This document shows, in pieces, positions 6,110 through 37,643 of a DNA stretch of 40,595 nucleotides. Within the stretch, counting starts at the first letter, position 1. Every line of letters begins with the position of its first letter. Made by a program: the position numbers and the translations under genes. Under the pieces are notes generated by a model. It was not told the DNA's origin and made no database searches. It worked only from the letters and a program-made list of their open reading frames with translations. Source of the stretch: an uncultured Flavobacteriales bacterium (GTDB lineage: Bacteria > Bacteroidota > Bacteroidia > Flavobacteriales > UBA7430); contig CAWVTK010000001.1 of assembly GCA_963933205.1 (NCBI GenBank), positions 1 through 40,595 on the forward strand, given 5' to 3'.

Positions 6110-9100
6110 ATGAATGTATCTATCTTTAACAAGTTTTTGGTATTCATCGCCTTTTTCTTATTCCTCTCAAATACTTCTTTTGCTCAATTTTCTCCCCACA
6201 ACGGCGACATCGGAGCAGATGAATCTTTAGAATGGTTGTATGATTATAATGGGTCTTTTAAATTAGGCGTAATATCCAAGAATAGTGGCAATAACGCCAG
6301 TGCTCCAATAGCCATAAGAATTTCCACGCTTATTGTTAGAGATCTACCTTGCGTACTTGGAAATTGTAATGATGAGCCAGTTTACTGGAATCATGTAAAA
6401 AACCTGCATGCTACCAATGGTCAATTTAGCGATTTAATGTATATAGAGCCAACTTTACCAGGTGCAGAAACAACTATAAATGGATGGCAAACATTAGAAA
6501 AAATTGAAACAGCCGATGGGCATAGTACAATTACTGGATCTTATGAATGTTGTCCTTGGTATTCTACCTGCTACTGCCCTTCTTATACTACTGAATCAAG
6601 AGGATATGATTTTCATGTTTTGGGAAGGTCAGGTGAAGAATTTAAGAACGTAACAAGCACAATAAATAACAACTACGTAACGGTCTCTTTTGACTGGTAC
6701 GACTTTCCTGAAAACTGGATAAATTCTGTTGCTCAATTTACTGTTGGGCCACAACAGTTTCAAAGATTTATACCGGTTGATTTTGGAACAGAAATAGCTG
6801 CTGTCACAGAGGCCGTTGTTACAGATAATGATGTTACTTTGGTAGGTGAGTCTTCATTAGTTTCTTGCGCAACTGATAATGATCATTCTGAGAAATGGTA
6901 TGCAGTAAGTCAAGATATTTACCAAGACACCAATTTCCATGAGGTAGATTTAGGTGACTGGTCAGATGATTTTAGTTTGCCAATATTAACGGCTGAAAAT
7001 TCTGAAAATATAGGACCCAATGTTTCCTTTGATTATAAGTTGTATTACCGAGAATTTGGAAAAGGATGTGCAATGCAACGGGTTTTTGAGCCTGAGGAAA
7101 TTACAACAAGTAATTTAAATTCAATTGATAGAATTATTGCTCTTAATGAAGACGACGGAACTGTAAAAGTATTATGGAGCCACCTTACAAGTGTAGACAA
7201 ATCAGACGTGTCGTATATTGTAAAAAGAACAGACGATCCGAATTTAGATCTTGAGGACTGGAGAACAGTTTATAAGTTTGAACAAGGAGTTCCATCTATT
7301 AACTATACCCTAAACAACGGTCAAAATGTTACCAATGGAGTAGTTGATCCAAATGATGAAGTAAATCCTTTAGGCGAAAGCTTCTCAGAAAAAGGCTTAG
7401 CCGGGCAGTTTATTGATCATACTGCCGATCCAGAAGGAACCTATAAGTACAGCATCCAAGCAAAAGTTATTACAGAATATGTAAATACCAATTACATCCA
7501 GCAGATGGAGAGTACAGGTGCTGGTATTTCCTTTTTTGACGACAACAACCAATTAAACATTGTTACCCCAACTCCTCTATGTTCTGGATTCGAGATTCAA
7601 GGAGTTCAAAGCATTATTAATGAAGAGATTAAGTTTGGTAATGAAGATTATGAATACGACAACCAAGATCATATTCTGTCATTTAATAGTCCCGACTTTT
7701 TTGGTACTCAAGGAGTTTCTCAGCGTGTTTACTTTTATGAAAACAGTGAGCTTACTGTTCCACTAATTAACCCAGAGACTGAAGAAGCTATAATAATCGA
7801 CGGTTCTGTGTCAGAGATCTCCGGATATGAACTCCCATTAGAGGACGATGTATTCAGTAGAACAGTTTATGGAATAATTGAAGCAACTCGTACAGATGGA
7901 AAGGTCTTTAGATCATTCAAACCAAGAGTAATTGTCGGGAACAGAAAACCAGTTCCTCCAACTGTAAATATATCTTCTGCTACTTTTGAAGATTATGTTA
8001 CGTTAAGATTTACAAATGTAAAAGAGGAACACAATATAGATCATATAAAAATATACCGTACCGCAAGAACTCCTTCCACCTCAACCGCACCCACAGATTC
8101 CACAACTTATTCAGAAAACTTTGTTCTTGATTCTTTGATTCTTACAAAAGAGGATCTTCAAGATTTGATCGTAGAAGCTGGCGAATTGGTTTTTAAAGAT
8201 ATACCAGATTCCGATAATAGTTTTAGTGGAGAAAGCACCGTGTTATGTAATGAATACGCCTATCAAATTCAATCGTCTAATTGCGAAAATTGGAGCTTAA
8301 ACGATTCTCCGTTCTATGTTGAAGTTAAAGGGAACACTAAACAAGTAACTCCAACCTTAGATCAAGATGTGTTTGAATTAGGGAACCCATTAAAAGATTT
8401 AACGTCTTCAAAAGGAGAATTTCCAGATAAAATTCATCTTACTTGGAACAACAACAGCTCCGGTGTTATTGATCATTATTCTATTGAACGCAGACAGTAC
8501 GGATCTGAGGGTGAGAATGCATGGATTCAACTTGGTTCTGTATCTACAGGAGAAAAGTACTTTCAAGACACCTATGCAGAAGCCAATCTATTATACGAAT
8601 ACCGTATTAAGGCACATGTTGGAAATTGTGAAACCTCTTCACCTGAAGATCCAGGTACTCAAGCCAATATGGTATCCACCCATCAAGTAGGTTACAGAAG
8701 ACCTGTTGGTAGAATTACCGGGAGAATTACCTACAACCAAACCTCAAATCCAGTTTCGGATGTATACGTAAAAGTCGAACCCATAATTAATGAAGATCAA
8801 ACAACCAATAGATCTTTAAATTTAGAATCGAACTACGGAATCGTAAGAAGTCCTATTAAAAGTGACTCAGATTTGGATGCTTTTACCGTAACATTTTGGA
8901 TGAAATCAATGGCCGATCAACAGGGTGTGTTGTTTTCTAGAAAGTCTACTTTGTATGACATGAGCTTGTATTTGGACGGCAATGCAATTGGATACAGTGA
9001 ATACTCAGGTTCATTAAATGAAACGTACCCAGCTTACAACTTAAAACCTGAAGAAAACAGCTGGAACAATGTAACGCTTACTTTTACTACTCTAGAAGAT

Positions 9101-15100: not shown

Positions 15101-18007
15101 GCTGGGGCTTTATACAAAGGTGCTATGCACGATTTAAGAGTATGGAGTAAGGTAGCAGGCGATATACTAGCCAATCGTTCTATTAACTTGTCTGGAAAAG
15201 AAGCGAATTTAGTTGGATATTGGCCAATGGATGAGCTTAGGTCAAATCCAAAAGACAAGGCCAGATATAGACATGCACAAACATCTGCACAGTGGGCTGT
15301 AGAAAGTGAAAACAAAGCTCTGAAATTGGAGTACAATCCAGCTTTAATAGAAGACTTCTCGGCTCTTCAAGATTCTTCTACGCTCGCCATTGTAAATGGA
15401 AGTGACTTTACAGTAGAACTTTGGTTTAATACTGATGTTTCAAATAATCAAACCCTTTTATCTTTGGGCTCTTGGGATCTTGGAGATAAGTTTGAAACCT
15501 GGTCTTTTGACATAAACGCTGGAGCAATAGAAATTTTCCAAGGGGATACCATTTATGCACCGGTTTTAAATACCAACTCCACATACAACGATGGAGAATG
15601 GCATCATATGGCCCTGGTTAAAAATGCCCGCTCAAACACCAGACTTTATGTAGATGGTGTAGAAGTGGATCAGGTAGACTCAGAATTTGTGGGAGGTATT
15701 ACATCTTCTTCGACGTATTTAGGTCATCGAAGAATTGTGGATACAGAAACGGCTTCTGTCGGATACACAAACCATTATATGGGATTAATTGACGAGATAA
15801 GAATTTGGAATATCGCAAAGTCTCACGACAGAATATTGTCTGAGATGAACAGTAATATATCCGAAAAGCTTGGTTTGAGTCAGTCTACAGATTTCAATCA
15901 AATTCAAATGAACTCCGAGATCATTAATTCTTCCGAATTAGATGTTCCTTTAATTAGAGCCTCAGAACTTAAAACCTCGGTTTCTTTTCACGACGTTTCC
16001 AATGGAGATCAAATCTCTATTAATTTAACGGAGTCTTTAAGTAGAATTGAAAACACTTCAATTGATTTTACGCTTCAAAAAGTTAGAGATTTATCTGGTA
16101 ACCTGATTGAATCGCCTATTACATGGACTACTTACATAGACAAAAATCAATTGATTTGGGACAATGAGTTTATAGAAATGGAAAAATTACTTAGCGAGTC
16201 TCTTTCGTTCACAACCCACATAATCAATCAAGGTGGTACGGTAGAGAATTTCCAAATCAGTAATTTACCACCTTGGTTAAATGCATACCCTAGCGAAGGA
16301 TTGTTAGATCCAAATTCGTTTACTCAAATTGAGTTTGTTGTAAATGAAGATCTGTTTATTGGCGACTATAAGGAAGACATTTTACTGGTTGGAAACAATG
16401 ACTATGCTGAGCGTATGGAGTTCAATCTTAATGTTGAGATGGAACAACCTGAATATTCTGTTGATCAACAAGACTATGAATATGTAATGAACTTTGTAGG
16501 TAAGGTAACCGTAGAAGGAATTCGTTCTAGAGATGAGAAGGATATATTGTTTGCCTATGTAGGCGAGGAATTAAGAGGAGCAGCTAGTCCAATTTATATT
16601 GAAGAATACGACAGCTATTTAATTTTCCTTTCAGTTTACGGAGATCAAGTAAACGGCGAAGAAGTAAGCTTTAGATTATGGGATGCCAGCGCAGGTAAAT
16701 TCCAAACTAGAGTAAAAATTAATGGTCAGGATCTTCATGATTTCCAACCTAGTTTCGTTATTGGTTCATTTACAGAGCTTACGCGCTTTGAAGCGACCAA
16801 TATTTTAAGACAAGACATCGTTTTAAATGAAGGCTGGAATTGGGTGTCTTTTAACCTAAATTCTTTAGAGGAACAAGACGATTTAGACGATGTATTACAA
16901 GTTTCTACCGTTATGAATCAGGTAGATGGTTCATCCGTTTCTATATTCAAAAATCAATATGCCTTTACTCAATTTGCAGAAATTGATGGATACAATGATA
17001 CCTGGATTGGCTCTTTAACAGAACTTCCTATTACGGATATGTTCATGATTAAAACGCAAAAATCGGATACGATTATTTACGAAGGTAAAATTGTGAATCC
17101 ATCTGAGGTACCAATTGACGTAAGTGCTGGTTGGAACTGGATTAGCTACTTAGGACAAAGAATAATGAGTACGAATGATGCGCTTTCTAGTTTAAATCCT
17201 AGCTCGGGTGATGTAATAAAGAATAAAAGTGCTTTTAGTATGTACGCTTCGGAGAGTCTTGGATGGCTTGGTACTTTAAACAGTATGGAAAGTGGACATG
17301 GATATATGTTAAAAACCGAAAGTACCGGTTCTTTAATTTACCCCGAAAGTTCAATATTTAGAATTCGAGACTACCAACTTAGCAAGAATCAAATTTCCGA
17401 TGAACTTGTTGAAGTGAACAACGCTTTGTATCAAAACTCAATGAGTATGGTTGCGAAAATTGATTTGGAGAAATTTACTCAACCAGATCTTTCAAATGTT
17501 TTAGCCGCTTACAGCGATCAATTGTGTCTGGGTAATATTAATGCTACACAGATCAATGAAGAAGAATCCTTGTACTTCATCACCATTTATGGTGAAGACG
17601 GCTACAATGTTTCGTTTAAATACTTCGATCAGGTTAATGGCGACTCTTTTAATGCAGAAAACACCCTTGAGTTTGAAGCTAATAAATTGATTGGGTCCAT
17701 ACAAGATCCTTATCCGATTATATTAACCGAGAGCCCAGATGATTTTTTGATAGAGTATACTCTAGATGTATATCCAAATCCATTTAAAGAGGAGTTTGAG
17801 GTAGAATTCACACTTGACAATGATGAATTCATTTCTATTGACATCTTTGATGTAACAGGTAGAAAAGTGAAATCTTTATTCAATGGATTACTTAACTCAG
17901 GACTACACAATTTAGATATTGACGCTTCTGATATTGCCAAAGGAAGTTATTTCATTGAATTGAAATTAAACGATTCTAGTTTCAGAAAAATCATTATTAA
18001 ATCATAA
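6110..18007 (+). CDS. Giant (3965 aa) secreted surface protein with FN3-like modules, three LamG (concanavalin A-like) domains, modules B and C, and a type-A T9SS C-terminal sorting domain
   Basis: An uninterrupted 11.9 kb frame in AT-rich DNA. Signal peptide MNVSIFNKFLVFIAFFLFLSNTSFAQ. FN3-like stretches (for example IHLTWNNNSSGVIDHYSIERRQ...YEYRIKA). LamG hallmarks (FTVTFWMK...GVLFS...MDEMVLWRKVLSDEEI, FTIEMWLKP..., FTVELWFN...IDEIRIWNIAKS). The C-terminus is YPNPFKEEFEVEFTL...IDIFDVTGRKVKSLFNG...GSYFIELKLNDSSFRKIIIKS. Confidence 0.93.
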   Translation: MNVSIFNKFLVFIAFFLFLSNTSFAQFSPHNGDIGADESLEWLYDYNGSFKLGVISKNSGNNASAPIAIRISTLIVRDLPCVLGNCNDEPVYWNHVKNLHATNGQFSDLMYIEPTLPGAETTINGWQTLEKIETADGHSTITGSYECCPWYSTCYCPSYTTESRGYDFHVLGRSGEEFKNVTSTINNNYVTVSFDWYDFPENWINSVAQFTVGPQQFQRFIPVDFGTEIAAVTEAVVTDNDVTLVGESSLVSCATDNDHSEKWYAVSQDIYQDTNFHEVDLGDWSDDFSLPILTAENSENIGPNVSFDYKLYYREFGKGCAMQRVFEPEEITTSNLNSIDRIIALNEDDGTVKVLWSHLTSVDKSDVSYIVKRTDDPNLDLEDWRTVYKFEQGVPSINYTLNNGQNVTNGVVDPNDEVNPLGESFSEKGLAGQFIDHTADPEGTYKYSIQAKVITEYVNTNYIQQMESTGAGISFFDDNNQLNIVTPTPLCSGFEIQGVQSIINEEIKFGNEDYEYDNQDHILSFNSPDFFGTQGVSQRVYFYENSELTVPLINPETEEAIIIDGSVSEISGYELPLEDDVFSRTVYGIIEATRTDGKVFRSFKPRVIVGNRKPVPPTVNISSATFEDYVTLRFTNVKEEHNIDHIKIYRTARTPSTSTAPTDSTTYSENFVLDSLILTKEDLQDLIVEAGELVFKDIPDSDNSFSGESTVLCNEYAYQIQSSNCENWSLNDSPFYVEVKGNTKQVTPTLDQDVFELGNPLKDLTSSKGEFPDKIHLTWNNNSSGVIDHYSIERRQYGSEGENAWIQLGSVSTGEKYFQDTYAEANLLYEYRIKAHVGNCETSSPEDPGTQANMVSTHQVGYRRPVGRITGRITYNQTSNPVSDVYVKVEPIINEDQTTNRSLNLESNYGIVRSPIKSDSDLDAFTVTFWMKSMADQQGVLFSRKSTLYDMSLYLDGNAIGYSEYSGSLNETYPAYNLKPEENSWNNVTLTFTTLEDEKQVKFYINGLLMNTYSSQFTPSVFDDFIFGVDRNLNAESSFDGLMDEMVLWRKVLSDEEIQSNYFKFLKTSDDDLIFFIAADEGLGAFSYDISSNTIDVFNKNHLELNSLSLTDTFSIPNHANHFYNDNYNTELLNLDKSTSSGMYDVTNIRYINDGNNFSITPFTILNETYSVIHEFLPAQRTDFIGDQSLLLSAIDFNDLTAITVQGNVFFDVTEENSDVSLIDKTEYQIGVEDVFVKVGGKRIQNDDGEVKTDADGFFSMSIPIGEQCISFEKNGHTFYYGDLEGERDDRYCQEFNFNSEQNLPNFSCNTYKELRGRITGGQMYDSQTIADIQIGFNQSANTIGSVGFDLMPNAASVLDYEGYLVSVQTNVLTGEYHAKLLPIVHKVNSSSWISSNYDVENSYRNQQQLFPTIDMEVKGDNDVNGDFVEEQLSSSIGELASQTITFNKRFDLVYRSNPSILVSQNIAGELAWSTSIGETSIEIDEGFSITTSDSTGYLLGMPVFKEKYGNGTYRYNIEVSEVYTNYGAINSTHDHNSYMYKDQNGASVHDTKQYLNPLQQGDVSIFNTMMKSSTEMMSLSDLNGSVDYEFNPDDPYVFGKEQGYMRKFIIQYQDGSVNAQWPKLSAGQNASTRGDVYAFGDESYGNDFFTFGPQTVDMILRDPSGDGSYSSITEGSTITRTSSVTNVNGYTKDWNFSVGAGLEIGGAIGFSLGAHVETKWSAKAFVTAGMTNSASLTNSSENQITISETYNHTISTNSADWEVGAKGDLYIGESKNLNFGTSKELQFLSTHNCALGGGVFDCLDYPLIKQNKTIRKQYEIDDVTNDTVISILQASALYELSSIPVSNSESIISDSTYSSNGKTYIIHDIEEVGSYQIGTQTAVSIKPGVSTKFAFSNNYIQNYLLTKLALIKNTYLFGEYTVDTDLLPIDHECFGEPSNSTCFDSYEDQSIRNYYTIPETSTEEYYVLPNLTNYDVNTLTAILGSTYQEFQSNFEDADHYIGYSVSNSAINNDEWNSPLISLQSETAGFGFSISEGVTPELVQYLNFVNTGPLFGTGLDIEIDAYLNLNGNSPDPVTAYDNVGAEGSIGDGEASGSISNGVTTVGGSVGSSSEDGVNTVSASGDYSNGVVNAGISVDISIDDDPTNDSYGNEEQLSDLLLNFASVQDFTSVPGFINLNNLIDDLTLDVPEESETIVIPRDKVQFYAQQIKLWKRAMANNELDKIESEFLTNHSISAGVSIEQSHTSVGAYSNTNSITYDLSSTNALGGDFSGHLAVIGFNAGFSYNNKYTLEFKTTTNLSGQSVTTTNYKLSDNDQGDIISIDVNESNYGFGPIFKVQAGATSCPWENVVNAKYIRDFDLYFELKFYDEFVKTGLAMPSQLTLNSNTFDFTFYGSLAENELNVKKASYVDYSRTTALPIKSVFDQKRLDVYNAVKESLLNQHTSMFGSDAPYELSAKTSQRDKPTLDVFPPVLYNVNENEQAAFTLTLGNASEDNSNRMYKIRVIEAENPHGAILKIDGINPNREFTVPAGGSVTKTLTVAKGPDSLNYENLQIIIYPGCQYDWGTSDEYDIADTISFSTYFLPTCTDIVIHDTDDDWLVNNADTNLLTLKLEDYNINYYSLRDVYFDYKFENEPWTPIEPQSNVVNPHFVINNLENFKTFSPLDLYNLLHSDFNLSSVVNTDLYNQLEPKEKCRGGNCAIYNATGLNVHEDWIAWKAVDADTTEYIQGEISRLKTTYLSSEEAVSDNEMLSLRMASTNVLWEVPMVPKDGNYKIRAKSNCGFYTSQTSSQQEEIAVYSLTHDVFSDRIRPELFGSIQPTDGILNPNDDVIVTFNEPINEIAFNTSSAQTYVEVMARKNRTAHTHDSYLYFGSDDSLNIPSGVYLNNSFTIEMWLKPESNGVLFEQSNGTDSEVIKLSVVDFDTDPKLQFEYIHPTDETKNQMVNHSMELPSTGFTHLALAYDAVDHQIIFLDGTGSVATPSYSFNMNYVGDGPIIAGALYKGAMHDLRVWSKVAGDILANRSINLSGKEANLVGYWPMDELRSNPKDKARYRHAQTSAQWAVESENKALKLEYNPALIEDFSALQDSSTLAIVNGSDFTVELWFNTDVSNNQTLLSLGSWDLGDKFETWSFDINAGAIEIFQGDTIYAPVLNTNSTYNDGEWHHMALVKNARSNTRLYVDGVEVDQVDSEFVGGITSSSTYLGHRRIVDTETASVGYTNHYMGLIDEIRIWNIAKSHDRILSEMNSNISEKLGLSQSTDFNQIQMNSEIINSSELDVPLIRASELKTSVSFHDVSNGDQISINLTESLSRIENTSIDFTLQKVRDLSGNLIESPITWTTYIDKNQLIWDNEFIEMEKLLSESLSFTTHIINQGGTVENFQISNLPPWLNAYPSEGLLDPNSFTQIEFVVNEDLFIGDYKEDILLVGNNDYAERMEFNLNVEMEQPEYSVDQQDYEYVMNFVGKVTVEGIRSRDEKDILFAYVGEELRGAASPIYIEEYDSYLIFLSVYGDQVNGEEVSFRLWDASAGKFQTRVKINGQDLHDFQPSFVIGSFTELTRFEATNILRQDIVLNEGWNWVSFNLNSLEEQDDLDDVLQVSTVMNQVDGSSVSIFKNQYAFTQFAEIDGYNDTWIGSLTELPITDMFMIKTQKSDTIIYEGKIVNPSEVPIDVSAGWNWISYLGQRIMSTNDALSSLNPSSGDVIKNKSAFSMYASESLGWLGTLNSMESGHGYMLKTESTGSLIYPESSIFRIRDYQLSKNQISDELVEVNNALYQNSMSMVAKIDLEKFTQPDLSNVLAAYSDQLCLGNINATQINEEESLYFITIYGEDGYNVSFKYFDQVNGDSFNAENTLEFEANKLIGSIQDPYPIILTESPDDFLIEYTLDVYPNPFKEEFEVEFTLDNDEFISIDIFDVTGRKVKSLFNGLLNSGLHNLDIDASDIAKGSYFIELKLNDSSFRKIIIKS
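8807..9305 (+). other. LamG / concanavalin A-like lectin domain 1
   Basis: NRSLNLESNYGIV...AFTVTFWMKSMADQQGVLFS...WNNVTLTF...KFYINGLL...FDGLMDEMVLWRKVLSDEEIQSNY. This is the typical LamG_3 pattern: a candidate sequence, then FT.E.W.., then .DE.R.W...LS..EI. Confidence 0.7.
14714..15235 (+). other. LamG / concanavalin A-like lectin domain 2
   Basis: YLYFGSDDSLNIPSGVYLNNSFTIEMWLKPESNGVLFEQ...FTHLALAYD...GAMHDLRVWSKV...LVGYWPMDE. Confidence 0.7.
15317..15868 (+). other. LamG / concanavalin A-like lectin domain 3
   Basis: ALKLEYNPALIED...GSDFTVELWFNTDVSNNQTLLSLG...GEWHHMALVKNARSNTRLYVDGVEV...MGLIDEIRIWNIAKSHDRILSEM. Confidence 0.7.
16475..17721 (+). other. B-C-C-B module block immediately before the sorting domain of the 3965-aa protein
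   Basis: B-like segments at 16475-16798 (YVMNFVGKVTVEG..DILFAYVGEELRGAAS..LIFLSVYGDQVNGEEVSFRLWD) and 17435-17721 (NSMSMVAKIDL..VLAAYSDQLCLGN..YFITIYGEDGYNVSFKYFD). Divergent C-like segments at 16829-17089 (EGWNWVSFNL...WIGSLTEL...MFMIKT) and 17123-17350 (AGWNWISYLG...GDVIKNKSAF...WLGTLNSMESGHGYMLKT). Confidence 0.55.
17756..18004 (+). other. Type-A T9SS C-terminal sorting domain (Por secretion tail)
   Basis: YTLDVYPNPFKEEFEVEFTLDNDEFISIDIFDVTGRKVKSLFNGLLNSGLHNLDIDASDIAKGSYFIELKLNDSSFRKIIIKS matches the familiar YPNP...(I/V)xIxDxxGRxV...G.Y(F/L)...K(I/L)(I/V)K pattern. Confidence 0.85.
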
Positions 18008-27028: not shown

Positions 27029-27057
27029 TGCTCCTCAGAAATTAGCATTCTTTTTTT
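27013..27057 (+). terminator. Strong hairpin overlapping the stop codon of the 3002-aa gene; probable terminator or attenuator
   Basis: AATTTCTGAGGAG (27013-27025) and CTCCTCAGAAATT (27031-27043) form a perfect 13-bp stem. The 5-nt loop TAATG contains the TAA stop (27026-27028). A T7 run lies at 27051-27057, 7 nt after the stem. Confidence 0.6.
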
Positions 27058-27082: not shown

Positions 27083-28087
27083 TTGACCTATTATAACAAC
27101 ATACTGTTGCTGATATTTGTTCTCCCAATGCTTCTTAATGGACAAGAAGTAAATTGGGAGACATCGCCGAATGATTTCGAACATTCTATGTCAATCACCT
27201 GCGTTGTTGTCAATCAAGAAGCTGAATATACATTGGATGATATTTTAATAGGTGTTTTCGATTCTGAACAAACTTGCGTTGGTTCAGGTTCTACAAATAC
27301 TTATTTCCCACCCATTTCCGCAAACTTAGGCTTTATTACAATTTTTGGCAATCAGTTTCAAGATACCTACACACTAAAGGTACTTATTGATGAGGTAGTA
27401 TACCAAGCAGGGAGTTTGTCGTTCGAAGCAAATGGTATTTTAGGTACTTTTGATGATCCGTTTATTATTACACCCTATTTTGCCGGCTGTACAAATGAGC
27501 TAGCTTTAAATTACAATTCAGCAGCATTAGATGACGATGGGACTTGTGTTTTAATATACGAAGGCTGTACAGATCCAGATGCTTTTAATTATGAACTCAA
27601 TGCAAATACCAACGACGGTTCTTGTATTCCTAAATACTTTGGTTGCTACTCGAGTAATTTTTTAGAATTTAATGAACTCGCTAACTATGGTACTCAAGAA
27701 GAATATTGTTTTACCGAAATTATTTACGGCTGTGTAAACGATTGTTTTGTCGAATACGATTCTTTAGCAAATAGTGATAATGGAAGCTGTGCAACCTCAT
27801 GGAAAGCAGCCTATTTGGACGCTGTTAATTACACTCAAGAAGTAAATGTAATTATCCAAATTGATTTAGTTGAAAGCTGGAACATAATTGGTTTTACAAA
27901 ACCTGAAGCGACAGATGCAGCATTGGCTTTTGAATGCATACTAGAAAAAATAATTGTAGTTAAAAACAACACAGGCGAAGTTTTTTTACCGTCCTATAAT
28001 TTTAATGGTATCGGAAATCTTATGCCTGGAATGGGCTATCAAATTAAAATAACAGACTCGGTTAGTAGTTTTAGTTTTTGTGATTGA
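27083..28087 (+). CDS. Secreted 334-aa family member with the order module B, four two-Cys repeats, linker, module C
   Basis: TTG start giving the signal-like MTYYNNILLLIFVLPMLLNGQ. B-like segment HSMSITCVVVNQ..ILIGVFDSEQTCVGSG..FITIFGNQFQDTYTLKVL. Repeats GCTNELALNYNSAALDDDGTC, GCTDPDAFNYELNANTNDGSC, GCYSSNFLEFNELANYG..YC and GCVNDCFVEYDSLANSDNGSC. Linker TSWKAAYLDAV. Module C is VESWNIIGFTKP...VVKNNTGEVFLPSYNFNGIGNLMPGMGYQIKITDSVSSFSFCD. The order matches the last roughly 310 aa of the upstream giant protein. Confidence 0.8.
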   Translation: MTYYNNILLLIFVLPMLLNGQEVNWETSPNDFEHSMSITCVVVNQEAEYTLDDILIGVFDSEQTCVGSGSTNTYFPPISANLGFITIFGNQFQDTYTLKVLIDEVVYQAGSLSFEANGILGTFDDPFIITPYFAGCTNELALNYNSAALDDDGTCVLIYEGCTDPDAFNYELNANTNDGSCIPKYFGCYSSNFLEFNELANYGTQEEYCFTEIIYGCVNDCFVEYDSLANSDNGSCATSWKAAYLDAVNYTQEVNVIIQIDLVESWNIIGFTKPEATDAALAFECILEKIIVVKNNTGEVFLPSYNFNGIGNLMPGMGYQIKITDSVSSFSFCD

Positions 28088-28164: not shown

Positions 28165-30294
28165 ATGAAAAAATTAGTAATTTTTTGTGCAATTATATCC
28201 CTCTTTTCAAGTACTAGCTTATTTGCTCAATGCGAAGCAGACCATACTGTATTTTTAAGTAACTTCGAATTTGCACCTTCCCAATTGGTTGTTTTGCCAG
28301 GAGAGTCAGTAGGTTTCTATAATCTAGAGGGTACTCATAATGTTAACGGCATTGTAAATTCCGTAACCGAAGAACCCTTTAATAATCCAACTGACTTTTT
28401 TCTCGATCAAACTATTGGCAGCGAAGAAGGCGTATGCATGGGAACAATCGTACTAGAAACGCCAGGTGTTTACAATTTTGACTGCAGCCTAAACTTTAAT
28501 GCTTTAAATGGAATGAATCTTTCCATTACGGTTGATGCATTTGATTTAAACGAACAGTTTCTCGAACTGCAAAACAATCCCGATGTTTCGGTCTTTAACT
28601 CTTACTACGCTTTCCAATCTTTTACACCTACATTCTTAACAAGTGAGGGGCCATGGACGCTTTTTGTTCCTAATGATGCAGCTGTATCTGAAATCCTCGA
28701 ATACATGAACTTGGGTCAGTTTGATGCTCTAGGTATTCCCGACTTTCCAGAAATAATGCAATTCCATATTGCCGATGGTTTGTATATGGCTGAGGATTTG
28801 ACGGACGGTTTGGTACTAAACTCTGTACAGGGTCAAACTTTAAATATTTCAGAAAACCAGGGCAATGTTTTTGTTGAAAACGCACAAATTATTAGCACCA
28901 ATTACACAGCATACAATGGCGTTATACATGTTATAGATCAATGTCTTGCTCCAGATAGCCTTCCTGGCGCACATGTAATGCAGGTGATCGCAGAAAGTCC
29001 GAACCACCAAATTTTTGAAGACGCAATTATTGCAGCAAGTTTAGACGATGAACTTTCTTTTCAAGGAACCATAGACGATTCTTTCGATGGTCCGGGCCCT
29101 TGGACTGTTTTTGCGCCTACCGATGAGGCTTTCCAGATTTTTGCGGATGAGATGGATTGGACTATTGATGAATTACTTAACTCTCAGTTTTTATACAATA
29201 TTGTAAATCAACATGTTGTAAATGGCTGTGTTAATAATTTTAATCCGCCCAATGAAATCGACGATGATTGTAACGGCGGATTAAGTGATGCCATTACGAG
29301 TTCTATTATATACGGGGGTACGGTTGCTTCAAATCTTGAGGGAGATCCTATTCAGTTTTCTACTAATGATAACGATAGTACGATTACTGTTATTGGAATT
29401 CAAAATGCTGTGGATATAATAGTAAGCGACTTATTTGCTTACAATGGCGTTGTTCATGTAGTTGATGCTGTACTTAAGCCTAAAATACCAACGCAAGAAG
29501 GCTCTTGTGGATTGTGGCGATTAGAACTGCAGAGTTCCGACCCAGAAGGATGGCAAGGTTCTTCCGTATACTTAATAGTGAACTCTATTGTACTAGAAAC
29601 AGTTACCATTTTCGATGGGAATTCTCAAACCTATGAATTTGCTCTTGATAGCGGCGATGTTGTCGATCTTTTGTATAACGCCAACGGAGGAAGCTCTTCT
29701 GACCATTCATATAAATTATACGATGCAGACAACTCAATACTAGTTCAAACAAGTGGAAATTCCAATAATTACGGCCCTTCCAGTTTTTATGGGGTAGATG
29801 CATGTCCAACACCAGTAGCAAACGATTCAATTTGCGGCGAAATCACTATAAAATTGTTTAATGATTATGGTATTGGTTGGTTGGCAAGTTCTCTGGAAGT
29901 TTTCAGAAACGGTGCTTTAGACATTTCATTACTAATGCCTCTTGGTTATGGGCCGCAAATAACTACCATCAGCTCTAACTATAATGATAGTTTTGATTTT
30001 ATTGTAAATAGTAACACTCCATACCCAGAAGAAATTGGCTACCAAGTTTTTGATGTTTCAGGTGCGCTTGTTGTAAATGAAAACAACTTTAATGTTGCGC
30101 CTCAAAGTACAACAGATCTCGTTTTTTGCGAATCGGAAGAGGGTGGAGTTGGACTAAGTGAGCTCGAAATGAAACAAGGGCGTTTGGTTAAAATGATTGA
30201 TGTTTTAGGAAGAGAACACACAAGACATGTAAAAGGAACCATTCTTTTTTATATGTACGACAATGGAAGGGTAGAGAAACGATTGAACCTATAA
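28165..30294 (+). CDS. Secreted protein with a cupredoxin-like N-domain, two FAS1 (fasciclin) domains, two degenerate GW (module D-like) units and a short T9SS-tail-like C-terminus
   Basis: The track ORF begins at 28084 (TTG/ATG). The internal ATG at 28165 gives a canonical signal peptide MKKLVIFCAIISLFSSTSLFAQ and sits 8 nt after a CCCCC tract. FAS1 hallmarks are WTLFVPNDAAVSE...YNGVIHVIDQCLAP and WTVFAPTDEAFQ...YNGVVHVVDAVLKP. The C-terminus is ...LVKMIDVLGREHTRHVKGTILFYMYDNGRVEKRLNL. Confidence 0.85.
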   Translation: MKKLVIFCAIISLFSSTSLFAQCEADHTVFLSNFEFAPSQLVVLPGESVGFYNLEGTHNVNGIVNSVTEEPFNNPTDFFLDQTIGSEEGVCMGTIVLETPGVYNFDCSLNFNALNGMNLSITVDAFDLNEQFLELQNNPDVSVFNSYYAFQSFTPTFLTSEGPWTLFVPNDAAVSEILEYMNLGQFDALGIPDFPEIMQFHIADGLYMAEDLTDGLVLNSVQGQTLNISENQGNVFVENAQIISTNYTAYNGVIHVIDQCLAPDSLPGAHVMQVIAESPNHQIFEDAIIAASLDDELSFQGTIDDSFDGPGPWTVFAPTDEAFQIFADEMDWTIDELLNSQFLYNIVNQHVVNGCVNNFNPPNEIDDDCNGGLSDAITSSIIYGGTVASNLEGDPIQFSTNDNDSTITVIGIQNAVDIIVSDLFAYNGVVHVVDAVLKPKIPTQEGSCGLWRLELQSSDPEGWQGSSVYLIVNSIVLETVTIFDGNSQTYEFALDSGDVVDLLYNANGGSSSDHSYKLYDADNSILVQTSGNSNNYGPSSFYGVDACPTPVANDSICGEITIKLFNDYGIGWLASSLEVFRNGALDISLLMPLGYGPQITTISSNYNDSFDFIVNSNTPYPEEIGYQVFDVSGALVVNENNFNVAPQSTTDLVFCESEEGGVGLSELEMKQGRLVKMIDVLGREHTRHVKGTILFYMYDNGRVEKRLNL
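28603..29481 (+). other. Two tandem FAS1 (fasciclin-1) domains, about 28603-28953 and 28972-29481
   Basis: Both the H1-like motifs (T(L/V)F(V/A)P(N/T)D(A/E)A(V/F)) and the H2-like motifs (YNGV(I/V)HV(I/V)D.(C/V)L.P) are present in each copy. Confidence 0.85.
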
Positions 30295-31453: not shown

Positions 31454-32095
31454 TTATATAAAAAGAAATATAGTAAAAAACACAAACATACTTGCCAAAA
31501 CATGCATAGAGATTCGTTTGTTTGTTTTTATTTCGAAATGTTGATAAGCAAGATGGGCTACAAAAGAGATGCAGATCCAAGCGATGTAATTTTGAATGGG
31601 AACCTCAGCTCCTTCGAATTCCCAAAAATCAAATCTAGGAGCTGATACTTCAATAATGGCATCTAACAAGGTCATGAAAAGAGCGCCTAAAAAAGCGCGT
31701 ACATAAAGCCTGTTGGAAATTTTTTTAGCCAAATCGGCTGTAATAATAGTGAGCATTATCCAGTTAATACATATCATAAAAGGTACGCCAACAATTTTAT
31801 AACCTAAATTAGCACCGTATGCATAGCTCCCGAATAGGAGTCCATAGTTTACTCCCAAAGCTTCGGTACCAAAACCCAAAAAGAAGGGTATAGAGAATGC
31901 TAAGAGTGTTTTTTTATTGATGGTTTCTACATGAATTACGAGTACCACAAAGCTGATAAATAGGTTTAATGGAGTAAGCGCTAAAAACCAATCGCTTGCT
32001 GGAGATAGTATACCAAGGATACCCGACACAGTAAAGAGCCAAAGCAATAGTATGGATAGTTTTGTTTTTGAACTCATTTTAGTGTTTGTTTTCAA
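31454..32095 (-). CDS. Polytopic membrane protein of the carotenoid biosynthesis protein (DUF422/CruF-like) type
   Basis: 213 aa, almost entirely hydrophobic helices. It overlaps the crtI stop by 17 nt, or starts at the alternative Met7 (complement of 32075-32077) just after it. It abuts the crtY start. The family assignment comes from memory of gene context and size, not from a search. Confidence 0.6.
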   Translation of the reverse strand: MKTNTKMSSKTKLSILLLWLFTVSGILGILSPASDWFLALTPLNLFISFVVLVIHVETINKKTLLAFSIPFFLGFGTEALGVNYGLLFGSYAYGANLGYKIVGVPFMICINWIMLTIITADLAKKISNRLYVRAFLGALFMTLLDAIIEVSAPRFDFWEFEGAEVPIQNYIAWICISFVAHLAYQHFEIKTNKRISMHVLASMFVFFTIFLFI

Positions 32096-33916: not shown

Positions 33917-34648
33917 ATGAAGAAGTTTTTATTTTCTTTAAGCTTATTGACGTGTTGTAGTCTTTTTGCTCAAACAGCAAATCTAAGTCCTTACCAGCAG
34001 AAAACTATGAATACGGAACGCTTTGCGCGTCCTGTTAATACAGGTTTAAACCACACACTACTTATATTGGGTTCTGCTTGGGAGATTTCTCCAGAAATTG
34101 GCGACGAGATTGCTGTATACGATTCAGAAAACAACATGGTTGCTTCTGTTGCTTGGAGTCCTGAGCAAGAAGGACATGCAGCCTTAGCAATTTGGGGAGA
34201 CGACGAAATGACGTCTGCCAAAGAAGGAATGAATAAAGCAGAGCGTTTTAGAATCGTTTTGTTTGATAAGTCGGAAGATTCCATGACTCAATTGAAAGTA
34301 AATCGTTGGGAGAGAGGACAAGATGTTTTTATAAAAGACGGGGTAAGTGTAGTTGGTTCTATAGAATTTGACAGAGCAATCACCCAAGATTTAGAGTTGT
34401 TTCAAAATGTACCCAATCCAGTAATAGACAATACAAGTATTAGTTTTTTTTTACCAACAGCTGGGAAAGTAAAAGTAACAGTATCTAATACCATGGGACA
34501 GGAAGTTATGGTTTTGGCTAATAAGGAATATGTTAGAGGAGTACATAATTTACAAATGAATGCTTCTAGCCTTGCAACCGGAGTGTATCTTTATAAGCTT
34601 GAAGCGAATGGTGCTTTTATTACCAAGCAGTTAACCTTAATTAAATAA
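33917..34648 (+). CDS. Small secreted protein: module B plus a type-A T9SS C-terminal sorting domain
   Basis: 243 aa. Signal peptide MKKFLFSLSLLTCCSLFAQ. Module B is NTGLNHTLLILGSAWEISPEIGDEIAVYDSENNMVASVAWSP..ALAIWGDDEMTSAKEGM..FRIVLFDKSEDS. The sorting domain (about 34391-34645) is LFQNVPNPVIDNTSISFFLPTAGKVKVTVSNTMGQEVMVL...GVYLYKLEANGAFITKQLTLIK. Confidence 0.88.
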   Translation: MKKFLFSLSLLTCCSLFAQTANLSPYQQKTMNTERFARPVNTGLNHTLLILGSAWEISPEIGDEIAVYDSENNMVASVAWSPEQEGHAALAIWGDDEMTSAKEGMNKAERFRIVLFDKSEDSMTQLKVNRWERGQDVFIKDGVSVVGSIEFDRAITQDLELFQNVPNPVIDNTSISFFLPTAGKVKVTVSNTMGQEVMVLANKEYVRGVHNLQMNASSLATGVYLYKLEANGAFITKQLTLIK

Positions 34649-34664
34649 GACTTTACAAAACACT

Positions 34665-37643
34665 ATGAAATCCTATACAAATAAATTTACAGCCCTACTA
34701 GCCATTGTATTCACGGTTTGCTGTTCGCCAGTTTTTTCTCAAACAGGTTGTACAAACCCTACAGCTTTTAATTACAATCCATTTTCTATTACAGACGACG
34801 ACACTTGCGAATTTGAACAGAGCGAAGGCAATCCATTAAGTGGAACTTGGGGGTTTAATTCTCCAGACATGGTTTCTGATAGTACCCAAGGATTGTACAT
34901 CGGTTTCATTAATTTTTATGATGCCTACTATGTTGTTTTTACCCCTCAAGGATCAGAATTAGGGTCTTATCAAGTTAACGATACCGTAGTGTATATAAAC
35001 TCAGATTATGACAGTACTGGAGACACAATTTCGTTTTCTGGTCATTATGGCTTAAATGGCTCTGATCCAATATTATGGGAACCTCTTCTAGAATGGCAAT
35101 GCATCGATTGTGATGGCTTAAACCTTGAAGATGCTATTTCTATTGAAGGTCAAAATACAGCCATTAACATGCCTGGTATTTGCTACGACTTTACAAGCAA
35201 CCTCACATCATTTACTTCAGAAGAAGACTGTAGTTCTTTATGGAACGAATTTGTTGTTGACGCTTACGAAATTACATTTGACCTAGATATTATGACATTG
35301 ATGAACGACAAGGAAACTCTAATTTTGACATCAGTTGAAACGGTATTCGGTTGTTTAATTGATGGTAATCCTCAATTCAATGCATTAGCTAACACAAACG
35401 ATTCGAGTTGTTCAGAAGGATGTTTTGACGAAGCTGCTTGTAACTTTGGAGAGGAAGCTTCTTGTTATTACCCAGAGGGATATTGCGATTGTGAAGGTGA
35501 ATTGCCAAACTATTCGAATGTAAGTTTTGATGTTTCTATGGATGGTTATGAATTCCTTACAGACTCTTTGGATGTTTTTATTGTGGCTAGTTGGCTCGAT
35601 GCAGAAACAAGTTTCCAAGTAGACTTGAACCGTAACGGTAATGAATGGCTTTACACAGGAGACTTGAACGGTACTCCTGGCAGCTCATTCTCCTATTTTG
35701 TGTCTGTAAATGGTCAATTATACGGTCAATGTGATGGAACTCCATACGCTACAAGCTTTAATACTCTTATCCCAGACAGTTCATGCTGGGTTAATATCAA
35801 CACCAATTTTATTGCTCCCTTTATGTGTAATGTTTTAGAGGGCTGTATGGATTTAAATGCTACTAATTACAACGAAATGGCCACTCAACAACAGTTTGAC
35901 CAATACGGTAATTTAACCTGTATTTATTCTTCTTGTGATGATGTACCTTTTTCGGGATGTGTTTACGCTGATGGTTTTGGTCCCTTTAATTCTGAGTTTC
36001 AAGCCGAGGCATGTGTATCTTACGGCGGAAACCCGTGTGATGTAAGTGTGAATGGTTGTACAGATGCTACAGCTCAAAACTTCGATATGTTTGCAAATGT
36101 GGACGATGGTACTTGTTTTTATTGTCAAAATCCAATATACTTTAATGTTCAACCGGACACATCAATTACAGATAATGTATCTGGTGTCTTGCAAAATGAG
36201 AATGATTTTATGACTTACTTTGGGCTTGGTGCAATAGATCTTTGTTTTGATTCGGGTTGTTTCTCAATTACGATGTACACCGATTTTCCTGGAGGTTTCG
36301 AAAATACAACCTTAGTGGTAACTGATAAAAACCAGGATTTAATTGTGCAACATATCTTTGGCGCTTCTAATTCGGAAACAATCAATTTTACCATTGGACA
36401 AAGCGAATGTAACCTCGGATGTACCTCTATCTTTGCGCTAAACTACAATGAAGATGCTGAGGTAAACGATGGCTCATGTGAGTTTGAAGGGAATTGTGCA
36501 AACTCAGAATTGTTAGATTGCAATGGTAACTGTGCACCCATGATTTGGTATGCTGATGGATTCTGCGACAATAATGAATTTGAATTTGGAAGCAACCCAA
36601 TCGATTTTACGTGTTTCGATAACGACGGTGGCGACTGTGACACCTCGAGTGTTGTTGTTGTTGGATGTATGGATTCTGCTGCTTCTAACTTTATGCCAGA
36701 AGCACTCGAAGACGATGGTTCTTGCGAATACCTTAGTACAGAACTAATTGAAGCCTACCAAACCATAGCAGATTTAGAAGCTGCTTTACAACAAGCCGAG
36801 TTTGATAATTGTACTACTACAGAAGTATACATTCCTTTAACCTTACCTCAAGGATGGGGTATGTTTGGATACAGCTGTATGGAGCCCATGAATGTAGTCG
36901 AAGCCTTTTCTAGTGTGGTTAATCAATTGATTATTGTAAAAGACAATTACGGGAATCCTTACCTTCCAGAATTTAACTTTGACGGTCTTGGAGATTTGCA
37001 TTATTCGCACGGTTATCAAATAAAAGTTACCGAAGAAATTACGGATTTATCTTTCTGTTCTATTATCGTAAATTCAGAAAACTCGAATGGCAACGAAATC
37101 TTTGGTTGTATGGACAATACTGCACTAAACTTTGATCCGCTGGCTAATCTAGACAATGGCTTATGCCAGTATGTAAATTCAAATTCGTTTAATTTGCCTT
37201 TGGACTTTGAAGGCGAATATTACGAGTTTGTAGATTTCGATGGTACTAGTACATTTGTTATACAGAACCCGAATCCTACAGACGTGAACCCAAGTGAAAA
37301 TGTAGTGCGACATATAAGACATGGTGGTGAACTTTGGGCTGGAACTTACATTGTTACCAATCCAATAAACTTTAGCTCTAGTATTTTTAAAATGAAAATT
37401 CAAGCTCCAGCTGCAAACATACCTGTACTAATGAAACTTGAAAATGCCAATACGGGCGAATTTGTAGAGCTTATTGTAAATACGACTCTAGCCAACCAAT
37501 GGGAAGAATTAACTTTTGACTTTGGAACTCCGCTTCAAAACAACTTGTATACGCAAGTAGTAGTAATATTTAATATAGGTGTAGTGGGCGATGGTTCAGA
37601 AAACTCAACGTATTACTTCGACGACATTATTAATGTAAATTAA
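34665..37643 (+). CDS. Secreted 992-aa Cys-repeat protein: about 8 two-Cys repeats, an LNR-like unit, an internal module C and a C-terminal CBM-like beta-sandwich. No T9SS sorting domain.
   Basis: Starts 16 nt after the previous stop. Signal peptide MKSYTNKFTALLAIVFTVCCSPVFSQ. Repeats include GCTNPTAFNYNPFSITDDDTC, GCTDATAQNFDMFANVDDGTC, GCTSIFALNYNEDAEVNDGSC, GCMDSAASNFMPEALEDDGSC and GCMDNTALNFDPLANLDNGLC. Ends ...STYYFDDIINVN. Confidence 0.88.
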   Translation: MKSYTNKFTALLAIVFTVCCSPVFSQTGCTNPTAFNYNPFSITDDDTCEFEQSEGNPLSGTWGFNSPDMVSDSTQGLYIGFINFYDAYYVVFTPQGSELGSYQVNDTVVYINSDYDSTGDTISFSGHYGLNGSDPILWEPLLEWQCIDCDGLNLEDAISIEGQNTAINMPGICYDFTSNLTSFTSEEDCSSLWNEFVVDAYEITFDLDIMTLMNDKETLILTSVETVFGCLIDGNPQFNALANTNDSSCSEGCFDEAACNFGEEASCYYPEGYCDCEGELPNYSNVSFDVSMDGYEFLTDSLDVFIVASWLDAETSFQVDLNRNGNEWLYTGDLNGTPGSSFSYFVSVNGQLYGQCDGTPYATSFNTLIPDSSCWVNINTNFIAPFMCNVLEGCMDLNATNYNEMATQQQFDQYGNLTCIYSSCDDVPFSGCVYADGFGPFNSEFQAEACVSYGGNPCDVSVNGCTDATAQNFDMFANVDDGTCFYCQNPIYFNVQPDTSITDNVSGVLQNENDFMTYFGLGAIDLCFDSGCFSITMYTDFPGGFENTTLVVTDKNQDLIVQHIFGASNSETINFTIGQSECNLGCTSIFALNYNEDAEVNDGSCEFEGNCANSELLDCNGNCAPMIWYADGFCDNNEFEFGSNPIDFTCFDNDGGDCDTSSVVVVGCMDSAASNFMPEALEDDGSCEYLSTELIEAYQTIADLEAALQQAEFDNCTTTEVYIPLTLPQGWGMFGYSCMEPMNVVEAFSSVVNQLIIVKDNYGNPYLPEFNFDGLGDLHYSHGYQIKVTEEITDLSFCSIIVNSENSNGNEIFGCMDNTALNFDPLANLDNGLCQYVNSNSFNLPLDFEGEYYEFVDFDGTSTFVIQNPNPTDVNPSENVVRHIRHGGELWAGTYIVTNPINFSSSIFKMKIQAPAANIPVLMKLENANTGEFVELIVNTTLANQWEELTFDFGTPLQNNLYTQVVVIFNIGVVGDGSENSTYYFDDIINVN
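36495..36641 (+). other. LNR (Lin-12/Notch repeat)-like Cys/Asp knot, second copy in the locus
   Basis: CANSELLDCNGNCAPMIWYADGFCDNNEFEFGSNPIDFTCFDNDGGDCD. It shares W.(G/A)DG..(D)C...and C.(N/D)NDGGDC with the copy at 23267-23409. Confidence 0.5.
36843..37058 (+). other. Module C, internal copy
   Basis: LPQGWGMFGYSCMEPMNVVEAFSSVVNQLIIVKDNYGNPYLPEFNFDGLGDLHYSHGYQIKVTEEITDLSFC. It is preceded by the helical linker LSTELIEAYQTIADLEAALQQAEFD. Confidence 0.7.
37188..37640 (+). other. C-terminal carbohydrate-binding-module-like beta-sandwich
   Basis: FNLPLDFEGEYYEFVDFDGTSTFVIQNPNP..NPSENVVRH...WAGTYI...FKMKIQAP..IPVLMKLEN......WEELTFDFG...YTQVVVIFN.G..GDGS..STYYFDDI. I recall this LPLDFE...W.G...KLE...W.E..FDF...YYFDDI pattern from glycan-binding accessory domains next to flavobacterial glycoside hydrolases. 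I have no family number for it. Confidence 0.45.

What the first reader, a model, noticed from the sequence alone, without database searches (positions are those of the whole stretch)
6110..37643. Two tight gene pairs in which a T9SS sorting-domain protein precedes a Cys-repeat protein lacking one
Seen in the sequence: clear type-A T9SS tails occur only in 6110-18007 (17756-18004) and 33917-34648 (34391-34645). Each of these genes is followed, 12 nt and 16 nt downstream, by a large two-Cys-repeat protein gene (18020-27028 and 34665-37643). Those proteins have signal peptides but end in module C or a CBM-like domain, with no recognisable type-A tail. I also see no FxPNGDGxND-type motif of the type-B tail. 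27083-28087 also lacks a tail, and 28165-30294 has only a roughly 45-aa tail-like remnant.

Inference: the tail-bearing partner could be the covalently anchored T9SS substrate that tethers or escorts the tail-less partner, via shared modules B or C. Alternatively, the tail-less proteins use an unrecognised export signal or stay periplasmic.
Basis: partly seen in the sequence, partly recalled or inferred. Interest (0 to 1): 0.6.

Follow-up and report, generated by a model that had tools for sequence, protein, structure and literature searches.

The report
Tail-less partners of T9SS surface proteins
In an uncultured marine flavobacterium, two large secreted proteins that lack any known type IX secretion tail sit directly behind tail-bearing genes; they carry a lineage-specific module that never occurs together with a tail, and a supposed "tail remnant" nearby turns out to be a widespread, undescribed 45-residue C-terminal domain.

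Summary
Type A T9SS tails are confirmed on 6110-18007 and 33917-34648. The genes 12 and 16 nt downstream (18020-27028, 34665-37643), and also 27083-28087, have signal peptides but no type A, B or C tail.

Three points change the picture.
1. Being tail-less is a conserved design. These proteins carry a single, Cys-bearing form of module C ("modC-s", a confident predicted alpha/beta fold with no PDB match). I found 37 copies and none sits in a tailed protein. It can be C-terminal, internal, or directly behind the signal peptide.
2. The "45-aa remnant" on 28165-30294 is a distinct, strictly C-terminal domain. It has 21 copies in this genome and about 3,300 clusters in public data. Carriers include GH16 enzymes. 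No Pfam or NCBIfam model covers it.
3. The tail/no-tail adjacency is kept in close relatives, and the tail gene usually comes first. However, in relatives only 7 of 56 tail-less genes have such an upstream neighbour, and 13 have no same-strand neighbour within 300 nt.

My best reading is that modC-s is a position-independent docking or anchoring module that replaces the covalent tail. The neighbour is a plausible anchor but not an obligatory one. How these proteins cross the outer membrane is unresolved.

The parts
6110..18007 (+). 3965-aa secreted giant (P0001). It has three Laminin_G_3 domains and a C-terminal stalk of modB, modC, modC, modB and a type A tail.
16466..17719 (+). Stalk modules of P0001: modB 16466-16777, tandem module C 16823-17065 and 17117-17326 (form without Cys), modB 17429-17719.
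   Evidence: Own-genome jackhmmer profiles
17768..17998 (+). Type A T9SS sorting domain of P0001 (residues 3887-3963).
   Evidence: PF18962 E 4.8e-12 and TIGR04183 E 1.1e-8, both above cut-off
18020..27028 (+). 3002-aa tail-less protein (P0002). It has a signal peptide and 45 HMM-detected copies of a 23-aa two-Cys repeat. It also has modB (26075-26404), a helical segment, and a single Cys-bearing module C (26786-27004) that ends 7 residues before the stop.
27011..27045 (+). 16-bp hairpin followed by a T run, overlapping the stop codon of P0002. Probable end of the P0001-P0002 transcription unit.
27083..28087 (+). 334-aa tail-less protein (P0005). It has a signal peptide, modB (27164-27469), Cys repeats, a helix, and module C (27863-28081) ending at the last residue.
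   Evidence: All 26 orthologues at 43-84% identity stop 0-1 residue after module C.
28165..30294 (+). Protein with two fasciclin domains (P0006) that ends in the short C-terminal domain TAIL_S (about 30154-30291).
33917..34648 (+). 243-aa protein (P0003). It has a signal peptide, one P3N beta-sandwich module (33977-34378) and a type A tail (34412-34633).
   Evidence: Stand-alone full-length matches at 44-75% identity occur in 11 other genomes of the family, spanning six of its seven sampled genera, plus two paralogues in this genome.
34665..37643 (+). 992-aa tail-less protein (P0004). It has a signal peptide, Cys repeats, and an internal Cys-bearing module C (36843-37058). After one more Cys repeat comes an unassigned 150-aa domain (37182-37640) at the C-terminus.
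40317..40595 (+). Start of a further gene in which the Cys-bearing module C follows the signal peptide directly. It runs off the contig.
3..2171 (-). Start of another family member, with three P3N modules, Cys repeats and a PA domain. It runs off the contig, so its ending is unknown.

Best explanation
The two pairs are genuine, co-transcribed units of one lineage-specific family of mosaic, Sec-exported proteins. The host is an uncultured marine Flavobacteriales family that has a T9SS.

Family members end in one of three ways:
- a canonical type A sorting domain;
- a previously undescribed ~45-residue C-terminal domain (TAIL_S);
- no tail at all.

The tail-less members of the window all carry a single, Cys-bearing form of module C (modC-s), which is never found in a protein that has a tail.

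Inferred mechanism: modC-s is a position-independent docking or anchoring module. It holds tail-less proteins non-covalently at the cell surface and so replaces the covalent LPS anchoring that the type A tail provides. For the two window pairs, the likeliest docking site is the stalk of the upstream T9SS-anchored partner. The candidates there are the P3N/modB beta-sandwich next to the tail, or the tandem module C. A generic surface component is an alternative target.

Shown:
- which proteins have tails and which do not;
- conservation of the tail-less architecture;
- mutual exclusion of modC-s and tails;
- position independence of modC-s;
- partial conservation of synteny.

Inferred:
- the docking function;
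- the identity of the receptor;
- surface location.

Unresolved: how the tail-less proteins cross the outer membrane.
For: Tail calls:
- Tails are present or absent as stated under Pfam, NCBIfam and a genome-trained HMM.
- The genome encodes SprA, about 68 type A tails and at least 11 type B tails.

The tail-less ending is conserved, not decayed:
- All 26 orthologues of 27083-28087 stop 0-1 residue after module C.
- 21 ORFs in this genome and 57 in relatives end within 15 residues of module C.

modC-s properties:
- 37 single modules have the F.FC ending, and none sits in any of the 51 tailed module-C proteins. Tandem C-C without Cys occurs in both tailed and untailed proteins.
- modC-s occurs at the C-terminus, internally, and directly behind the signal peptide.
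- Module C folds with pLDDT 91 as a small alpha/beta domain. It has no PDB match (best E 1.1, TM<=0.50), so it is unlike the Ig-like sandwich of known CTDs.

Domain grammar:
- Fused relatives read C-C-P3N-tail. The stand-alone protein 33917-34648 is exactly P3N-tail.

Synteny and order:
- Synteny and the order bias are shown.
- modB is exclusive to the first locus, and its copies cluster by position across genomes.
Against:
- Most tail-less family genes in relatives have no tailed neighbour, so any partner must usually act in trans.
- The combined test for upstream enrichment over tailed family members is not significant (15/72 vs 11/96, Fisher p=0.13). Only the own-genome count is nominally significant (8/16 vs 3/20, p=0.03).
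- 33917-34648 has no module C, so a C-C interaction cannot explain the second pair.
- P0004 has no full-length orthologue outside its own 90% cluster.
- A docking module does not explain passage across the outer membrane. Hitch-hiking through the T9SS has no precedent that I could find.
- The P3N/modB fold is a generic beta-sandwich with no significant match to cohesin.
Confidence: 0.4

Rival explanations
1. The tail-less proteins carry their own unrecognised outer-membrane export signal, which module C or its surroundings provide. They would be a fourth class of T9SS cargo, or use another route. The adjacency to tailed genes would then only reflect clustering of one paralogous family.
For: - Module C is the last element in 78 ORFs, and the stop position is tightly conserved.
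- modC-s and tails are mutually exclusive, as expected for alternative signals.
- Most tail-less genes have no tailed neighbour.
- T9SS signals outside types A and B already exist, for example type C in ChiA (PMC10202324).
Against: - modC-s also sits directly behind the signal peptide or internally, with 200-650 residues after it. P0004 ends in a different domain. Known T9SS signals must be C-terminal (PMC11285876).
- The predicted fold is alpha/beta, not the 3+4 beta-sandwich of CTDs.
- hhalign finds no relation between module C and either tail.
Confidence: 0.22
2. The tail-less proteins never reach the surface by a dedicated route. They stay in the periplasm or leave in outer-membrane vesicles. 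The pairing with tailed genes has no mechanistic meaning.
For: - They have only a Sec signal peptide and no known OM-translocation signal.
- Upstream enrichment over tailed family members is not significant when relatives are included.
Against: - Their make-up is that of extracellular binding proteins. P0002 is 3002 aa with 45 disulfide-type repeats. Relatives combine the same modules with MAM, CUB, DUF1566 and GH16 domains.
- Strong conservation of architecture and synteny in close relatives, plus the 13:3 order bias, suggests functional coupling.
Confidence: 0.15
3. The tail-less state is an artefact. The genes would be truncated by assembly errors, frameshifts or recent pseudogenisation of formerly tailed genes.
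For: The genome is a fragmented assembly of 233 contigs. Two related loci do show split ORFs (L056 and L058).
Against: - The same endings occur in 26 independent orthologues and in dozens of paralogues and relatives.
- Each downstream gene starts with its own signal peptide.
- A terminator follows the stop of 18020-27028.
Confidence: 0.02

Closest known systems
T9SS type A cargo (PF18962 / TIGR04183), with the CTD removed by PorU and the protein linked to anionic LPS
   Same: 6110-18007 and 33917-34648 have a signal peptide and a C-terminal type A domain above the curated cut-offs. The genome encodes the SprA translocon.
   Different: Their operon partners have no such domain. TAIL_S is about 45 residues, whereas characterised CTDs span 67-108 (PMC11285876). 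TAIL_S resembles type A only over about 21 columns around the 'ixIxDxxGrxV' strand.
Type B CTD cargo with an adjacently encoded PorP/SprF-like partner (PMC9143113)
   Same: Secretion or anchoring depends on a protein encoded next to the cargo gene. This is a precedent for functional gene pairs around T9SS cargo.
   Different: There is no type B domain in the window and no PorP-like beta-barrel partner. Here the neighbour is itself a type A cargo.
Type C CTD (ChiA type, NF033708)
   Same: It shows that T9SS signals outside types A and B exist.
   Different: The model matches neither the tail-less proteins nor TAIL_S. It gives only sub-threshold hits, mostly on ORFs that carry a type A tail.
Cohesin-dockerin assembly of cellulosomes
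   Same: A ~70-residue module sits mostly, but not always, at the C-terminus of many different client proteins. A few small anchor proteins consist of a beta-sandwich plus a cell-surface anchor. Some proteins carry both kinds of module.
   Different: No Pfam dockerin or cohesin hit. Module C is alpha/beta and lacks the duplicated Ca-binding loops. Binding is untested. Clients in a Gram-negative cell must also cross an outer membrane.
Hitch-hiker export, as in Tat co-translocation of signal-less subunits and piggy-back import into peroxisomes (PMC9251779)
   Same: A protein without the targeting signal travels bound to a partner that has it. The T9SS also moves folded proteins.
   Different: This has never been shown for the T9SS. 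The tail-less proteins here are up to 3002 residues long, and most relatives lack an adjacent partner.

Membership tests
T9SS type A sorting domain (PF18962/TIGR04183) | HMM match above the curated cut-off at the extreme C-terminus, for 6110-18007 and 33917-34648 | tested here: met
   46.4 and 37.7 bits against a cut-off of 27. The matches end 2 and 4 residues before the stop.
T9SS type A sorting domain (PF18962/TIGR04183) | The same HMM match in 18020-27028, 27083-28087 and 34665-37643 | tested here: not met
   No hit at E<=0.1 on the whole proteins. No T9SS hit at E<=10 on the C-terminal pieces scanned against Pfam (all three) or NCBIfam (18020-27028 only). The genome-trained HMM with --max gave nothing.
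T9SS type A sorting domain (PF18962/TIGR04183) | The same HMM match, and a domain length of 67-108 residues, for the end of 28165-30294 (TAIL_S) | tested here: not met
   TIGR04183 gave E 0.079 on a different stretch. hhalign of TAIL_S against type A gave probability 27% over 21 columns. The conserved core is about 38-45 residues.
T9SS type B sorting domain (TIGR04131) | HMM match at the C-terminus | tested here: not met
   No match in the six window proteins. The model does find at least 11 other ORFs in this genome, none on this contig.
T9SS type C sorting domain (NF033708) | HMM match above the cut-off of 40 bits | tested here: not met
   The best match in the genome is 33 bits, on an ORF that carries a type A tail. 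In the window it reaches 13.5 and 11.2 bits.
T9SS cargo in general | Sec signal peptide, and a host that has the T9SS translocon | tested here: met
   All six proteins have signal peptides with Gln at +1. SprA is found at 2093 bits.
T9SS cargo in general | T9SS-dependent export of the tail-less proteins or of TAIL_S proteins | not testable with these tools
   This needs secretome or fractionation data in wild type and T9SS mutants.
Cohesin-dockerin system | Dockerin (PF00404) or cohesin (PF00963) sequence signature | tested here: not met
   The Pfam scans of all window proteins returned neither family.
Cohesin-dockerin system | Specific binding between the client module and the anchor module | not tested
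   No complex prediction was available, and no experiment was done.

The most novel reading that the evidence does not exclude
An uncultured marine Flavobacteriales family may build multi-protein surface assemblies in a cellulosome-like way. A few T9SS-anchored proteins (P3N/modB sandwich plus tail) would act as anchors. Dozens of tail-less clients would dock on them through modC-s, a new alpha/beta fold. The clients would possibly cross the outer membrane as hitch-hikers on tailed partners. In parallel, TAIL_S would be a fourth, minimal class of T9SS sorting signal.
Probability: 0.2. Interest if true: 0.8.

Novelty: new variant of a known kind. Interest (0 to 1): 0.55.

Why it matters
T9SS cargo is currently recognised by three C-terminal domain families. 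Genome surveys of marine Bacteroidota use those models to count secreted enzymes and adhesins.

In this lineage, a large share of the apparent surface proteome escapes the models. About 78 ORFs end in module C in the DNA examined. The short tail covers about 3,300 public clusters, including GH16 glycoside hydrolases.

If TAIL_S is a working signal of ~45 residues, it would define the minimal element the translocon needs. If modC-s is a docking module, it would be the first non-covalent assembly system described on T9SS anchors. It would also raise the question of whether the T9SS can carry partner proteins.

Both ideas can be tested directly with reporter fusions in Flavobacterium johnsoniae.

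Tried and rejected
- **Module C as a diverged CTD.** Rejected. hhalign finds no relation to type A or to TAIL_S. The predicted fold is alpha/beta, and the module is not confined to the C-terminus.
- **Tail-less state as decay or assembly artefact.** Rejected on conservation.
- **Lipoprotein surface export.** The signal peptides end in SPI-type sites with Gln at +1, and no canonical lipobox is present (read). I considered this unlikely.
- **Adjacency as a general rule.** Rejected by the neighbour census in relatives.
- **Recent fission of a fused C-C-P3N-tail gene into the pair.** Rejected. The tailed gene lies upstream, not downstream. Stand-alone P0003 orthologues are 44-75% identical to each other but at most 39% identical to fused forms.
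- **Concerted evolution of modB within the locus.** Rejected. Copies cluster by position across genomes.
- **Fold assignment of modB/P3N and module C against the PDB.** This led nowhere. modB matches only generic beta-sandwiches at E>=6e-3, and module C has nothing better than E 1.1.
- **AF2 on full-length 27083-28087.** It resolved only modB.
- **The apparent "Gammaproteobacteria" GH16 hit sharing Cys repeats.** Its signal peptide follows the Bacteroidota Q-rule, so it is probably mis-binned. I did not pursue it.
Full report
**Setting.** The window is the whole of contig C1 of a 2.03-Mb assembly in 233 contigs, with about 36% G+C. The closest public records are uncultured marine Flavobacteriales and "Cryomorphaceae" MAGs and single-cell genomes: UBA6772, MED-G21, CM1_5m.P23 and AH-700-E14. 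The genome encodes the T9SS translocon SprA. It has about 68 ORFs with a type A tail and at least 11 with a type B tail, none of the latter on this contig.

**Check of the observation.** The ORFs and gaps are as described.
- Pfam PF18962 and TIGR04183 match the last ~75 residues of 6110-18007 and 33917-34648 above their cut-offs.
- 18020-27028, 27083-28087 and 34665-37643 match nothing in Pfam or NCBIfam, including the type A, B and C models.
- Their C-terminal pieces scanned alone against Pfam at E<=10 also match nothing. The end of 18020-27028 scanned against NCBIfam at E<=10 gives no T9SS model. A tail HMM trained on this genome's own tails and run without filters finds nothing.
- All six proteins begin with SPI-type signal peptides that expose Gln at +1, the Bacteroidota pattern (PMC5837995, listed).
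- A 16-bp hairpin with a T run at 27011-27045 closes the first two-gene unit.

**A family with a modular grammar.** Iterative profile searches inside the genome define the following modules.
- A 23-residue two-Cys repeat: 375 copies in 63 ORFs, 45 of them in 18020-27028.
- A ~115-residue beta-sandwich, P3N. AF2 gives pLDDT 80-90 for it, and Foldseek finds only generic sandwiches.
- Module C, about 70 residues: 67 copies in 42 ORFs.
- A 150-residue domain that ends 34665-37643.

Module C modelled alone reaches pLDDT 91 as a small alpha/beta domain and has no match in the PDB (best E 1.1, TM<=0.50). It is almost confined to this bacterial family: 3 of 251 genomes sampled across the class have it, counting this one.

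**What follows module C.** I counted this across the genome and 84 loci of relatives.
- The stop codon, within 15 residues: 21 own and 57 in relatives.
- P3N, which in these proteins precedes a tail: 11 and 33.
- The short tail directly: 5 and 4.
- Something else: rarely.

The small protein 33917-34648 is exactly signal peptide, P3N and type A tail. That is the piece by which the fused proteins exceed the tail-less ones.

**The "remnant" is a domain.** The last ~45 residues of 28165-30294 have the consensus LVKVxDxLGQEV-(6-9)-KGxxLFYxYxDGxVEK. The same domain recurs at the very C-terminus of 21 ORFs in this genome.
- A profile built from them finds 3,319 representative clusters at E<=1e-3 among 1.84 billion proteins. 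In about 147 of the best 150, the match ends 0-3 residues from the C-terminus.
- Carriers have signal peptides and include GH16 glycoside hydrolases with the ending P3N-C-C-P3N-TAIL_S.
- No Pfam or NCBIfam model covers it.
- The only similarity to type A is a 21-column stretch around the 'ixIxDxxGrxV' strand.
- It is rare outside this family: 9 of 251 genomes sampled across the class.

Characterised CTDs span 67-108 residues, although the HBP35 signal was mapped to its last 22 (PMC11285876). TAIL_S is therefore a good candidate for a minimal sorting or anchoring signal. That role is inferred, not shown.

**Tail-less is a design.** The 26 orthologues of 27083-28087, at 43-84% identity and mostly from marine metagenomes, all stop 0-1 residue after module C. 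More telling is that module C comes in two forms.
- Tandem C-C copies without Cys occur in proteins ending in a type A tail (19), in TAIL_S (23), or in nothing (41).
- Single copies ending in F.FC ("modC-s") number 37, and none lies in any of the 51 tailed module-C proteins.

All three tail-less proteins of the window, and the ORF starting at 40317, carry modC-s. This form is not tied to the C-terminus. It also sits directly behind the signal peptide or internally, with 200-650 residues after it. In 34665-37643 it is followed by another repeat and a 150-residue domain.

A module that excludes tails and is position-independent looks like an alternative means of attachment. It does not look like a C-terminal translocation signal.

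**Is the neighbour a partner?** Evidence in favour:
- A metagenome contig whose 334-aa-protein orthologue is 53% identical keeps the order: tailed giant (3937 aa), tail-less giant (3171 aa, 52 repeats, module C at the end), then the small protein.
- A paralogous pair exists on C201, and the same pair in genome G004.
- modB occurs only in members of this locus type, and its copies cluster by position across genomes. The architecture is therefore old and stable.
- Stand-alone full-length matches to 33917-34648, at 44-75% identity, occur in 11 other genomes spanning six of the family's seven sampled genera.
- A tail-less protein ending in module C follows them on C1 and C79 of this genome and in three genomes of another genus.
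- In this genome, 6 of 14 module-C-ending genes with a known upstream gene follow a tailed gene. Counting the two special cases (P0004, and the 3'-open gene on C201), the figure is 8 of 16. That compares with 3 of 20 for tailed family members and about 2% for ordinary genes.
- When the two kinds are adjacent, the tailed gene is upstream 13 times and downstream 3 times.

Evidence against:
- In other genera the small tailed protein sits beside unrelated genes: LysM/periplasmic-binding, a TonB-dependent receptor, and MbnP.
- In the 84 loci of relatives, only 7 of 56 tail-less genes follow a tailed gene, against 8 of 76 for tailed members. 35 of 56 have no tailed gene in the directon, and 13 of 56 have no same-strand neighbour within 300 nt.
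- The combined enrichment is not significant (p=0.13).
- Orthologues of 27083-28087 can lack any same-strand upstream gene.
- 34665-37643 has no full-length orthologue outside its own 90% cluster.

**Reading.** I commit to the following, at about 40%. modC-s is a docking or anchoring module that replaces covalent anchoring through a tail. In the two window units, the upstream T9SS-anchored protein is the most plausible docking site. The receptor there would be the P3N/modB sandwich next to the tail or, for the first pair, the tandem module C. Elsewhere the partner must act in trans, or the target is a general surface component.

The resemblance to cohesin-dockerin is one of logic only. No sequence signature is shared, and no binding was tested.

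The route across the outer membrane remains the weak point. I found no report of T9SS hitch-hiking. Folded-protein transport by the T9SS, and hitch-hiking in the Tat and peroxisomal systems, make it conceivable (PMC9251779).

The rivals are:
- an intrinsic unrecognised signal (22%);
- no dedicated export (15%);
- artefact (2%).

**Novelty.** The type A tails are ordinary. What is new is the combination of a lineage-specific, tail-excluding module with a new predicted fold, a widespread undescribed short C-terminal domain, and partly conserved tailed/tail-less operons. I class this as a new variant of a known kind. It is of moderate interest because both hypotheses can be tested directly with reporter fusions.

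Noticed in passing
window 30154-30291, and 20 further ORF ends in the genome: Short, strictly C-terminal domain TAIL_S (LVKVxDxLGQEV...KGxxLFYxYxDGxVEK). It has about 3,319 public clusters, and no Pfam or NCBIfam model covers it. In one subclass it is preceded by a conserved 'PTVPxWAxxME..HPNDIR' stretch, giving a unit of about 65 residues.
   Followed up: yes
proteins P0307, P0308 and P0313 (metagenomic relatives): GH16 glycoside hydrolases carry Cys repeats as a linker, followed by the stalk P3N-C-C-P3N-TAIL_S. The family's stalk cassette therefore also displays enzymes.
   Followed up: partly
window 27011-27045: Perfect 16-bp hairpin with a T run that overlaps the stop codon of the 3002-aa gene. 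It separates the first two-gene unit from 27083-28087.
   Followed up: partly
window 40317-40595: A gene that starts with a signal peptide followed immediately by the Cys-bearing module C. Together with several relatives (L058, L068, L070), it shows that the module can be N-terminal.
   Followed up: yes
window 3-2171 (- strand): A further family member with three P3N modules, Cys repeats and a PA (protease-associated) domain. It is cut by the contig end, so its ending is unknown.
   Followed up: partly
genome contig C95 4004-4708: A paralogue of 33917-34648 lies upstream of a 21-repeat Cys protein. Its C-terminal ~85 residues look like a degenerate type A tail (no PNP motif) that the HMMs miss. 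Tail counts from HMMs are therefore lower bounds.
   Followed up: no
window 30308-33554 (- strand): Three carotenoid genes (lycopene cyclase, Caroten_synth, and a phytoene-desaturase-like oxidase) separate the two surface-protein loci. A Crp-like regulator (5155-5736) and a TPR-LuxR regulator (37914-39752) flank them.
   Followed up: partly
protein P0127 (2337 aa): The top hit of the TAIL_S profile has 23 internal partial matches to the second half of the profile. It is a repeat protein, not a C-terminal domain. Its relation to TAIL_S is unexplained.
   Followed up: no
protein P0306: A GH16 protein labelled 'Gammaproteobacteria bacterium' shares 14 Cys repeats but has a Bacteroidota-style signal peptide (..FSFA|Q). 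It is probably mis-binned. If the label is right, the repeat is not confined to Bacteroidota.
   Followed up: no
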